From Paecilomyces variotii (Eukaryota), in the NCBI GenBank assembly GCA_004022145.1, contig RCNU01000003.1: a stretch of 64,000 nucleotides of DNA. The stretch is one strand, 5' to 3'. Below, one piece after another: positions 18,475-27,774 of this stretch. The notes under the pieces are model-generated. The model saw only the letters and a program-made list of their open reading frames with translations, was not told where the DNA came from and ran no database searches. The stretch's first letter is position 1, and every line of letters begins with the position of its first letter. The position numbers were made by a program, and so were the translations under genes.

Positions 18475-19591
18475 GAGAGCTTTACCTATGTCTCACATAT
18501 CACCACTTTTCTAATCGAGGTAGGGATTCCGGCCTTTGTACTACCGCTATCTCCTCAATCATATACTTAAGTAACCTTATATAATTTCTATGTTAATATC
18601 CGCGAATATAGAAATAAAAGGTGATACTATTATAAGAGAGGTAAGCGCGTAGCCTTATCAATATCTAATATTTAGCTATATTAATATATCTTTTCTTTAT
18701 TATGCGATAACGGTAATATAGAGAATCTATAGTTAATATATATCTATTTCTAAGCCGCGTAAGAGCAGCGCAATAATACACAACTAGAGGAAGATAGGTA
18801 ATATTTCTGCGCTTCGCTAGATTAAGCTAGCAGAGGGCTCCTTAGTTGGATTACTATATTGTAATTAGTGCTTTGACACTGGGCGATCACGGTTGGGTTC
18901 CCAACCTCGCATGAAGCCTAGATAGCCTATTGCAGTATTTGGCTGCCGGCCTTCTGATTATGGATATTCTGTTAAAACCACCTTTCGAACTGATCGTCGT
19001 CTGGCACCTCCTGGAATGGTTTGAGGGTCTCGGGATATGTTATCCGCCTGATAGGCTTAGCAAGCCATGGAAAACATGCGACAAATCAGCGCGCTTTAAA
19101 CAATGTCCTACGCCACTACAGCACTAAGATAAGGCCACTAGGAAATGTCCCGCGTAGTGTTGGTTCACAGGCTAAGTAATTCCTGCAGTCTCAAGTGCGG
19201 CGGCAACTCGCTTATCTTTATTGGGATGAATCCCTGCCAGGGGCTGAACAACTCACTTCCCCCCAGCTATTGTAGCAAAAGCAATGATGGTGGCTCGCTT
19301 TAGGTCAGAATAAAAGGCTGAGTCGGCTGTCAACAGCATGTCCTCTGCCTGTAGTTTCATGTTCGAGTTTCGATTATAGTATCAAAAGCACAGAGATTTG
19401 TTCACCGACTTTGCAACAGCAGCGACTCCTTTCGATGGTAATGCCCTCATGGATCCATTGACAGCGGTAGGCTTGGTCTCCAACATACTCAGCTTTATTG
19501 ATTTCTCTGGGAAATGGATCAAAGGGGCGTACGACATCTACAATTCGGAACTCGGGAGCACGCCAGATAATTCTCGTAGTAAGGAATTGCT
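18475..19591 (+). repeat. Left arm of a degenerate inverted duplication (partner 25586-27774)
   Basis: Reverse complement of 18475-18860 aligns by eye to 27378-27774, and 18870-19591 to 25586-26374. The 18560-18860 part is TpA-rich (RIP-like). Confidence 0.9.
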
Positions 19592-25729: not shown

Positions 25730-27774
25730 GGGGCCAATACGACCCTGTTGCAATACTGGCCAACAATTATTATGTGGTTTGTAATACTATAACTCAAACT
25801 CAAACATGAAACTATAGGCCCAGAGAGGGCTTGCTTCTCTAAGACTCAATGTTGGCAGCCACCATGCTGTTTACACCCGACTCAGCCTTGTACCTTGACT
25901 TAGAGCATACCGCCGCCATTTATTTTGCTTCAAGGACTGGGGCAACTGAATTTCTCAGATCCTGGCAGGGATTCATTCCTCTTCTCATCCATACCATAAA
26001 GACAAGCAAGTTGCCGCCGCACTTGATGCCGTAGGAATTAACTTGTGAACCGACACCACGCGGAACATTTCCTAGTAGCGTTATCTTAGTGCTATAGTAG
26101 CGCAGTCACAGTCTACTTAATAAAGCGCGCTGATTTGGCGCATGTTTTCCATGGATTGCTAAGCACAATAATTCCCGAGACCCTTAAACATTCCAAGGGG
26201 TGCCAAATCAAGGTCAGTTTGAAAGCTGGTTATTATATCTGGAATATGCAAACTCCTTGGTTGTCAACAGAAGGTACCTATAATCAGAAGATTGATATGC
26301 AGCCGGATGTTGCAATAGGCGTGGGCTTCATCTGAGGTCAGAAACCCAGCTGTGATCGCCAGTGTCAACGCACAGCAACATATATAGGCCTTCCTGAGCG
26401 AATAACTGATTTCGATATCACTGTCAAGGCAGTGCTTTGTATAATTATGTTTTATTCCCTTGATAATTAATATGGGTATGTAAATAGATGTCTCGGCTAA
26501 TAATTATGTTTATATGGCACTCAGGACTGAGTAACGGACACAATGCGCCCATTGTCTATATTTTTAAATATAGACTTATAGTAATGCAGCACTTCAAGAC
26601 CTAATATATAAAAGCTGTCGGCGTATAAAGCAAACGCCAGGTGATCTGCAATGATCTGTTACACAACATTCCCGTATAGAATTGGATCGAACCTACTAGA
26701 TTACTAGATTACTAGGATCTAGATTCTTTGTATGCTAGAGATAAATATGGGATCAATCCCCCCTAGACCTAGAGTAAAGCAAGCAATTCAGATTCTGCTT
26801 CCGTGCTAAAGGATTCGACAAAAGCACAGTAGATGCTTATGATTGTCCAACAGTAATCTCCAGTGGACAACTCTGCGATATTCTAATGCGACAAGAGACT
26901 AATTAACCATCTCTCAGCTAAAAAGCACTAGCAAGATGATGTCAGTCATATTTTCGTCGCGATTTTGAAAAGGGGCACTGAGACTTTAACTATTGCAATG
27001 TTTCTCTTTCCCCCAAGATAGTTCTACTGAGCCGAATATAGATCATTCTCCGGTGCGAGTTAGAGATAGGAACCTGTCGGCGCCCAACTAGCTGCAAAAC
27101 GCCACTAGCACCCTATATGAAGGGCATAGAACAAACAACAAGAAGCCACCTATTTCCATCAATATAGGATCAGAGCAGACATGCCGGAAGTAGGAAATGC
27201 TCAGGAATAGTGGCGGAGGCAGTGCTCCAAGCAACAATTGATCAGGATGAAGTCCGAGGACATAAATAGTCTATTGATTCCAGTACCCTCCAGTTCTTTA
27301 AGCAATCAAGATCCTATTCCCGTATCAAATGATTTTCTACTATTCTTGCTTTCGTGGTCTTGGATTATGAGAGAACCTGTGTGGTAATCCAACCAAGACC
27401 TGGCTAAACTCAGAAGAGCTGCTAGCTTTATCTAGCGAAGCGCAGAAATATTACCCATCTTCTTCCAGTCGTGCATTACCAAGGCTACCGCCTGCGCTGC
27501 TCCTACGGAGCCGAGGAATGCATATGTACTGTAGATCCTCTATACTATTTTTGTTGTAGAAGGAAGAAAAGATATATTAAAATAGCCAGTTGCCAGATAC
27601 TGATAAGGCTGCGCGCTCACAGCATCACTTGATATTTCCAGGTTACAAAAACCGACACAGAAATTGTATAGGGTGACTTAGTTATATAGTTAAGGAGACA
27701 GCGGTGGTACAGAGGCCAGAATCCCTACCTCAGTTGGAAAAGCGGTGATATGTTGAACATACGGTAAAGCTCTC
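25586..27774 (-). repeat. Right arm of the inverted duplication, carrying ~1 kb (about 26375-27377) absent from the left arm
   Basis: See left arm. Junctions read CGCCAGTGTCAACGCAC... and ...GTGGTAATCCAACCAAG. Confidence 0.88.

What the first reader, a model, noticed from the sequence alone, without database searches (positions are those of the whole stretch)
18475..27774. NLR gene enclosed by a ~1.1 kb inverted duplication of its own promoter and 5' end
Seen: 18475-19591 is repeated in inverted orientation at 25586-27774 and brackets the NACHT gene and one other gene. The copy includes the upstream region and 48 codons of the HeLo-like domain, then stops. No transposase is present. Inference: either the scar of an inversion made by staggered breaks, or a head-inward paralogue pair in which one copy was deleted. 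Such arms could mediate re-inversion that swaps the NLR promoter/start. The copied promoter points back toward the locus and could drive the neighbouring minus-strand gene at 24318.
Basis: partly seen in the sequence, partly recalled or inferred. Interest (0 to 1): 0.7.

Follow-up and report, generated by a model that had tools for sequence, protein, structure and literature searches.

The report
Dead inverted copy of gene start
A mould immune-type gene has an old, broken, back-to-front copy of its promoter and first codons a few kilobases away, but the DNA between the copies is not flipped, so this is most likely an ordinary scar of a local rearrangement that also clipped the neighbouring gene, not a genetic switch.

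Summary
The inverted repeat is real. 18475-19591 matches 27774-25586 in three blocks (70-74% by BLAST, 81% of ungapped columns). It occurs only here in G000, and contigs of other runs show the same arrangement. The right copy is dead: ATG reads GTA, a stop follows codon 48, and about 1 kb of repeats, including a solo LTR, splits it. A single staggered-break inversion is not supported. The enclosed gene (AN2483 homologue) has the same orientation to the helicase and profilin genes as in related fungi; 0 of 24 and 0 of 21 informative loci show the predicted flip. Upstream conserved elements stay collinear across the right arm. New: the enclosed gene has lost about 170 C-terminal codons at a third break about 450 bp from the NLR stop. 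Best reading: a fixed scar of a local rearrangement without net inversion. Either the NLR's 5' end was copied backwards beside the neighbour's promoter, or the NLR moved and left its start behind. Sister-species gene order would decide and could not be obtained. No sign of switching or of selection on the copied promoter; transcription untested. The scan noted a loosely similar inverted-repeat scar at an NLR in another genome.

The parts
12025..18105 (+).
   Evidence: ORF; Pfam Sec63, DEAD, Helicase_C; synteny
18475..19591 (+). Left arm: 974 bp upstream of the NLR plus its first 48 codons
18475..18833 (.). Distal block of the left arm with a RIP-type excess of C-to-T and G-to-A changes; GC 34% against 44% in the right copy
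   Evidence: 38 versus 12 polarised transitions, p=3e-4; 20 of 37 in CpA context, p=3e-4
19449..22583 (+). Intact NLR-type gene: exon 1 19449-19870, intron 19871-19930, exon 2 19931-22583, 1024 aa; weak SesA-like N-terminus, NPHP3_N NACHT-type NTPase, DUF7791, weak ankyrin-like stretch
   Evidence: exon limits read from the sequence against P0043; Pfam; orthologues P0044, P0045
22971..24318 (-). Gene C, homologue of Aspergillus nidulans AN2483, no Pfam family; exon 1 24318-23401, exon 2 23351-22971; 432 aa
23025..23045 (-). Third breakpoint: similarity to full-length orthologues (560-574 aa) stops at about residue 403; the last ~170 residues are missing
   Evidence: tail not found in flanks or in G000; same short end in L018
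24404..25356 (-). Gene C's own upstream region, with five short non-coding blocks collinear with outgroup L021 (three at E<=0.01, two at E 2.2)
25582..25728 (-). Dead copy of NLR codons 1-48: GTA in place of ATG, no indel, TGA right after codon 48
25586..27774 (-). Right arm: inverted copy of the left arm, lying in the divergent intergenic region of gene C and profilin
26374..27418 (.). About 1 kb present only in the right arm; a nest of dispersed repeats and AT-rich unique sequence
26616..26820 (.). 205-bp solo-LTR-like repeat, TG...CA ends, 5-bp target-site duplication; nearest copies 91-93% identical
27090..27366 (.). Second dispersed repeat family, about 275 bp, copies 73-82% identical; class not determined
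28783..29523 (+). Profilin gene; right syntenic anchor
   Evidence: Pfam Profilin on three exons; synteny

Best explanation
A fixed, dead scar of an old local rearrangement that left an inverted copy of the NLR's first 1.1 kb in the divergent promoter region between gene C and profilin, with no net inversion of gene C. Shown: the copy is local, start-less, cut at codon 48, interrupted by repeats, and diverging like unconstrained DNA; gene C keeps ancestral orientation and its own upstream elements; gene C lost ~170 C-terminal codons next to the NLR's 3' end. Inferred: a DNA break was repaired with a nearby template. Two routes give the same sequence and I cannot separate them. In route B the NLR already sat between the helicase and gene C, a break upstream of gene C was patched with a backwards copy of the NLR 5' region, and gene C's tail was deleted separately. 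In route A the NLR first sat on the minus strand between gene C and profilin, was copied or cut and re-inserted inverted into gene C's 3' end, destroying that end, and all but its first 1.1 kb was lost from the old site. Afterwards RIP-type mutation hit the distal block, mainly on the left, and an LTR element inserted in the right arm. The arms do nothing now.
For: Local two-copy repeat. Ancestral orientation of gene C: 20 of 24 and 18 of 21 loci as in the window, 0 as a single inversion predicts, 12 loci with both neighbours as in the window. Right arm falls between collinear non-coding blocks: 619 bp apart in L021, 3183 bp in the window, of which the arm is 2189. Start loss, stop, 7 versus 0 lineage-specific amino-acid changes, p=0.016. 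Promoter divergence matches neutral simulations (P 0.12-0.80 for three statistics). NLR body has RIP indices like the helicase and gene C (TpA/ApT 0.56 versus 0.61 and 0.60), so it was not duplicated for long in a species where RIP is shown to be active (PMC6300479, passages). Same arrangement in X6 and X7 contigs, no arm-to-arm joint in 4 of 4 runs. Gene C truncation.
Against: No target-site duplication or junction microhomology seen at the arm ends (read by eye). The 48 codons show pS 0.39, pN 0.12 and no indel or internal stop; simulations fit a spell of coding constraint on both copies as well as or better than a neutral right copy (best joint 0.17 versus 0.05). Differences cluster in codons 1-17 (permutation P 0.023), which a clean neutral model does not explain. 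RIP is one-sided (38 versus 12), unexpected if the two arms triggered it together. The 69 loci include near-identical assemblies, so independent lineages are fewer. No DNA of the nearest sister species was available, and transcription was not examined.
Confidence: 0.72

Rival explanations
1. Long-lived head-inward paralogue pair: the whole NLR was duplicated in inverted orientation on the other side of gene C, both copies worked for a time, then the right one was deleted from codon 49 on.
For: dN/dS 0.24 over 48 codons, no indel or internal stop, synonymous divergence (0.39) above non-coding (0.195); symmetric omega 0.3 simulations give the highest joint fit.
Against: Amino-acid changes are one-sided on the right copy; no remnant of the NLR body near the right arm; no RIP mark in the NLR body, whereas an NLR duplication in Podospora is described as triggering RIP in both copies (PMC13449251, passages).
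Confidence: 0.12
2. Inversion by a staggered break made the arms, and a later crossover between the young arms flipped the segment back, restoring gene order and leaving the extra arm.
For: Geometry and size (1.1 kb, inward-facing, one copy decayed) match breakpoint duplications in Drosophila, up to about 1.9 kb and sometimes one-sided (PMC1885836, passages); the higher identity in codons 18-48 could be a conversion tract.
Against: Needs two events and leaves gene C's truncation unexplained; no inverted intermediate in 4 runs or 69 loci.
Confidence: 0.1
3. Single inversion by staggered breaks, with the enclosed segment now flipped relative to the ancestor.
For: Arm geometry alone (model in PMC1885836, passages).
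Against: Gene C and its upstream elements are in ancestral orientation: 0 of 24 and 0 of 21 loci fit.
Confidence: 0.02
4. Functional arms: an invertible promoter switch for the NLR, a borrowed promoter for gene C, or a source of RNA antisense to the NLR 5' end from the divergent promoter region.
For: The copy points at gene C and sits in a divergent promoter region; right-arm sequence is covered in all 4 runs laid.
Against: No joints between arms; 19% divergence and a 29-bp longest perfect run; no excess conservation; solo LTR inside; an AT-rich TATA-like word upstream of the NLR is changed in the copy and 28 ATGs lie before gene C; no recombinase among the ORFs scanned.
Confidence: 0.04

Closest known systems
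Inverted duplications at inversion breakpoints made by staggered breaks (Ranz et al. 2007, PMC1885836; passages read)
   Same: Unique sequence including part of a gene duplicated in inverted orientation; size under 1.9 kb; one copy decayed by substitutions and indels; no transposon ends.
   Different: The enclosed gene is not inverted relative to outgroups; a third break truncates the neighbouring gene.
Locally templated inverted insertions from break repair or template switching (recalled; one search listed no fungal paper on this)
   Same: A nearby segment copied backwards into a new place with gene order kept.
   Different: Junction signatures cannot be read after ~20% divergence, so membership is not shown.
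RIP-affected NLR duplications, such as Podospora nwd6/nwdp-2 (PMC13449251; passages read)
   Same: Duplication of NLR sequence in a RIP-competent fungus leaving a dead copy; CpA-biased transitions.
   Different: Here only the 5' 1.1 kb is duplicated, it is linked and inverted, RIP marks are confined to the distal non-coding block, and the NLR is intact.
Foldback or Mutator-like elements with long terminal inverted repeats that carry captured genes (recalled)
   Same: Long inverted arms around genes.
   Different: Arms are single-locus, derived from the NLR itself, with no target-site duplication seen; the enclosed gene C is at its ancestral place.

Membership tests
Staggered-break inversion with breakpoint duplications | Inverted duplication of non-repetitive sequence at both ends of a segment | tested here: met
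Staggered-break inversion with breakpoint duplications | Enclosed segment inverted relative to the ancestral order | tested here: not met
   0 of 24 and 0 of 21 loci show the predicted order; collinear non-coding blocks
Staggered-break inversion with breakpoint duplications | Ancestral single-copy junctions recoverable in a sister species | not testable with these tools
   No sister-species DNA obtained
Invertible DNA switch | Both orientations present among strains or cells | tested here: not met
   No arm-to-arm joint in 4 of 4 runs; contigs drop rare variants
Invertible DNA switch | Near-identical recombination sites or a linked recombinase | tested here: not met
   81% ungapped identity, longest run 29 bp; no recombinase family among 25 ORFs scanned
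Foldback/Mutator-like element with long TIRs | TIR family dispersed in the genome | tested here: not met
   Only local matches, a lower bound by the tool's own note
Foldback/Mutator-like element with long TIRs | Target-site duplication and an empty site | tested here: inconclusive
   None seen by eye at 18474/27775; old ends could have eroded; gene C is resident
RIP-mutated duplication | Excess C-to-T with CpA bias | tested here: met
   Left distal block only: 38 versus 12, 20 of 37 CpA; bias as reported in PMC6300479
RIP-mutated duplication | Both copies mutated over the shared length | tested here: inconclusive
   Right distal TpA/ApT 1.25 but substrate index 1.11; proximal blocks unbiased; no outgroup DNA to polarise shared changes
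Fungal NLR (tripartite STAND protein) | NACHT-type NTPase domain | tested here: met
   NPHP3_N above cut-off (68.8 bits versus 24.8); NACHT PF05729 only below cut-off
Fungal NLR (tripartite STAND protein) | N-terminal effector domain | tested here: inconclusive
   SesA 22.5 bits versus cut-off 26.3; no HeLo hit
Fungal NLR (tripartite STAND protein) | C-terminal repeat domain | tested here: inconclusive
   DUF7791 above cut-off; ankyrin hits weak, E 0.004-0.05 in three relatives

The most novel reading that the evidence does not exclude
One local multi-break event moved a working NLR across its neighbour and flipped it, leaving its promoter and first 48 codons as a donor-site scar and clipping a conserved gene. 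Because only 1.1 kb was ever duplicated, the NLR changed position and upstream context without being destroyed by RIP. With the second NLR in G000 that is broken by an internal 1.7-kb inversion, this would point to micro-rearrangement as a way NLR loci turn over in a RIP-active fungus; the scar might also yield RNA antisense to the NLR start.
Probability: 0.15. Interest if true: 0.5.

Novelty: new member of a known kind. Interest (0 to 1): 0.22.

Why it matters
Modestly. As a dead scar it is ordinary genome history. It is a useful caution: an inverted duplication with textbook staggered-break geometry need not mark an inversion, and only synteny shows that. Two side results are usable. A conserved gene of unknown function (AN2483 family) survives without its last ~170 residues, a natural truncation allele. 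RIP-type sites in a 20%-diverged linked repeat differ between strains, which could test in nature the laboratory finding that RIP detects low, interspersed homology (PMC4858203, abstract). If route A holds, it would show how an NLR can move in a RIP-active genome, a question that PMC13449251 (passages) calls paradoxical.

Tried and rejected
Assembly artefact: rejected. Dispersed-repeat origin of the arms: rejected; only the 1-kb insert is repetitive. Known RNA family in 17800-29000: 0 Rfam matches at gathering score. Lost tail of gene C in the flanks: 16 frameshift-tolerant comparisons (4 regions, 2 strands, 2 proteins), scores 25-38 against shuffle maxima 31-52; one scored 38 against a maximum of 36 in 8 shuffles and was taken as chance; positive control 329. 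A second staggered duplication at the NLR 3' side: of 42 region-strand comparisons one passed z 2.5 (22589-22665 against the region upstream of gene C, direct orientation, z 4.7); wrong orientation for the model and taken as chance. Tree of the 48 residues: 0 of 7 inner branches supported, uninformative. Dating by shared residues: only W23 is a clean candidate for a state shared by both arms and absent from sister species; S20 also occurs in P0046. Sister-species gene order: accession look-up gave no answer; a scan of prokaryote genome contigs with P0044 found no relative among 74 stretches; earlier-findings look-ups by relatives and by sequence were empty. Expression: six of the 24 runs listed are on record as RNA; none was laid. 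Literature: searches listed no paper on this locus or on such an arrangement at a fungal NLR; one search gave nothing useful; the library lacks most subscription papers. No supplementary files were read.

Full report
1. Observation. A self-comparison of the window finds one repeat only: an inverted pair in three blocks, 18976-19591 with 26231-25586 (70.0%, E 8e-91), 18475-18833 with 27774-27419 (72.4%, E 1e-55) and 18868-18973 with 26373-26266 (74.1%, E 6e-10). Aligned end to end the arms are 81% identical in ungapped columns, with a longest perfect run of 29 bp. Searches of the own genome G000 (30.1 Mb, 86 contigs) with the left arm and with two parts of the right arm returned only this locus; the tool calls such counts lower bounds.

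The right arm is longer because about 1 kb (26374-27418) is absent from the left arm. It holds two dispersed repeat families (48 matches from 40 of 147 candidates scored). One, 26616-26820, has TG...CA ends and a 5-bp target-site duplication, and a related copy in L099 forms direct repeats with its own 5-bp duplication, so I read it as a solo LTR. Its nearest copies are 91-93% identical, closer than the arms are to each other, so it probably arrived after the duplication (inference).

It is not an assembly artefact. I laid 4 of the 24 runs listed. One contig of X6 covers 15500-26644 collinearly with 74 other letters. One contig of X7 covers 15500-23063, and another 23036-26708. X11 and X12 are fragmented. 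No joint links the two arms in any of the four; the opposite-strand joints listed all have at least one end in the repeat insert. Contigs drop rare variants, so this shows the common state only.

2. The genes. The left anchor is a Sec63/DEAD helicase and the right anchor is profilin. The NLR-type gene runs 19449-22583 with one intron and gives 1024 aa, as does P0043, labelled Paecilomyces variotii. It has an NPHP3_N NTPase domain and DUF7791 above cut-off; SesA and ankyrin hits are below cut-off and there is no HeLo hit. Orthologues labelled 'P. variotii No. 5' (P0044) and P. lecythidis (P0045) are 57% and 54% identical in the C-terminal region. The enclosed minus-strand gene, gene C, is identical to a protein labelled P. 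variotii and is a homologue of A. nidulans AN2483. It has no Pfam family.

3. The test of inversion. A single staggered-break inversion predicts an ancestor with gene C on the same strand as the helicase and profilin genes. I fetched 69 metagenome loci around gene C relatives. Of 24 with a helicase hit, 20 have the window's arrangement, 4 have other arrangements and 0 have the predicted one. Of 21 with a profilin hit, 18 have the window's arrangement, 3 others and 0 the predicted one. Twelve have both neighbours as in the window, and none of the 69 has a hit to this NLR. Several loci are near-identical assemblies, so independent lineages are fewer. In the closest full locus, L021, five short non-coding blocks map in order to 24404-25356 (three at E<=0.01, two at E 2.2) and two more to 28539-28800, all in one orientation. 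The inner and outer groups are 619 bp apart in L021 and 3183 bp apart in the window, of which the right arm is 2189 bp. So gene C is not flipped, and the right arm is an addition to the divergent intergenic region of gene C and profilin.

4. A third breakpoint. Gene C is 432 aa here but 574 and 560 aa in the sister species. Similarity ends at about residue 403, near 23025-23045, about 450 bp from the NLR stop. The missing ~170 residues were not found in G000 (8 candidates scored) or, with a frameshift-tolerant search, in four flanking regions. L018, 94% identical to the window over gene C, has the same short end. P0044 and P0196, the NLR and gene C of one sister species, both list a longest contig of 68,880 bp. 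That suggests they share a contig and that the NLR was already in this neighbourhood, but order and strand could not be obtained.

5. Is the copy alive? Its first codon is GTA and TGA follows codon 48. Of ten amino-acid differences, seven are clear changes on the right copy and none is a clear change on the left (p=0.016); positions 7, 10 and 24 were set aside as ambiguous. Against this, pS is 0.39 and pN 0.12, with no indel. Simulations allow a neutral right copy at the divergence that fits the non-coding DNA (joint 0.05) but fit moderate constraint on both copies at higher divergence better (0.17). Differences cluster in codons 1-17 (16 of 51 bases against 10 of 93; permutation P 0.023), which may be gene conversion or chance. 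The promoter copy diverged as evenly as neutral simulations (P 0.12-0.80). An AT-rich TATA-like word about 140 bp upstream of the NLR start is altered in the copy, and 28 ATGs lie between the copy and gene C's start; the TATA reading is mine, not a tool result. Transcription was not examined.

6. RIP. In the distal block the left arm carries the T or A at 38 transition sites and the right at 12 (p=3e-4); 20 of 37 scorable left changes are in CpA context against 26% expected (p=3e-4). CpA-biased RIP is shown experimentally in P. variotii (PMC6300479, passages). Proximal blocks and the NLR body show no such bias; the body's indices equal those of the helicase and gene C. Twelve strain differences are listed in this block, 5 of them CpA/TpG-type; one search showed only 40 of 511 differences, so this is a partial view. 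RIP can detect interspersed homology at 36% overall identity in Neurospora (PMC4858203, abstract), so continued action on these arms is possible but not shown. The one-sidedness is unexplained.

7. Mechanism. The present order is helicase, arm plus NLR body, clipped gene C, its upstream region, inverted arm, profilin. Route B starts with the NLR on the left, patches a break upstream of gene C with a backwards copy of the NLR's first 1.1 kb, and deletes gene C's tail separately. Route A starts with the NLR on the right, minus strand, re-inserts it inverted into gene C's 3' end and loses the old body. Route A explains the truncation in the same event and the 374 bp of surplus intergenic sequence, but needs three breaks or a quick deletion before RIP. 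I rate them about equal, 0.72 together. Rivals: a long-lived paralogue pair (0.12), inversion followed by reversion (0.10), functional arms (0.04), a single inversion (0.02). The arms differ by 19%, against about 0.7% between G000 and X6 and 6% to L018, so the event predates those splits. That it postdates the split from the sister species rests on their full-length gene C and one shared residue, and is less sure.

8. Comparison and novelty. The geometry matches the breakpoint duplications of Ranz et al. (PMC1885836, passages), but the defining inversion is absent. It is not a foldback or Mutator-like element and not a switch by the tests above. Searches listed no paper on this locus; the library is incomplete.

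9. Verdict. The feature is real and fixed in the strains seen, and most likely dead: a local inverted partial duplication with a clipped neighbour. New member of a known kind; interest 0.22.

Noticed in passing
G000:C5:507890-511700 (L015, L016): A second NACHT gene (PNP_UDP_1, NPHP3_N, DUF7791) has an internal segment of about 1.7 kb inverted, with both breaks in coding sequence; frames on all three parts are still open and no long repeat lies at the ends. Recent inversion or misassembly; not checked with reads.
   Followed up: partly
window 22971-23045: Gene C (AN2483 family) lacks the conserved last ~170 residues, yet its frame is intact and 93% identical to the protein of the L018-like lineage (P0003): a natural truncation allele.
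   Followed up: yes
window 24404-24433: A 30-bp non-coding block upstream of gene C is 93% identical in L019-L021 and partly kept in L022; a candidate regulatory element.
   Followed up: no
L021:4195-5774: The closest outgroup locus has a different NACHT gene (PigL_N, NPHP3_N, NACHT) just beyond profilin, so this neighbourhood has taken up NLRs more than once.
   Followed up: partly
window 18517-18823: Transition differences between strains in the left distal block, 5 of 12 listed at CpA/TpG sites, with the mutated letter sometimes in G000 and sometimes in the other runs.
   Followed up: partly
L093:1873-3801 (G000:C67): A 1.9-kb segment with 330-bp inverted ends (83% alike, outer 40 bp nearly perfect) that include the 205-bp LTR-like repeat; no long ORF.
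   Followed up: no
window 25461-25507: Run X7 lacks 45 bp just inside the right arm's inner end.
   Followed up: no
window 30171-31367 and 32047-32520: A carboxylesterase-like ORF with a long acidic insert and a phosphotransferase-like ORF follow profilin; the esterase had no hit in any of the 69 relative loci, so it may also be a later arrival.
   Followed up: no
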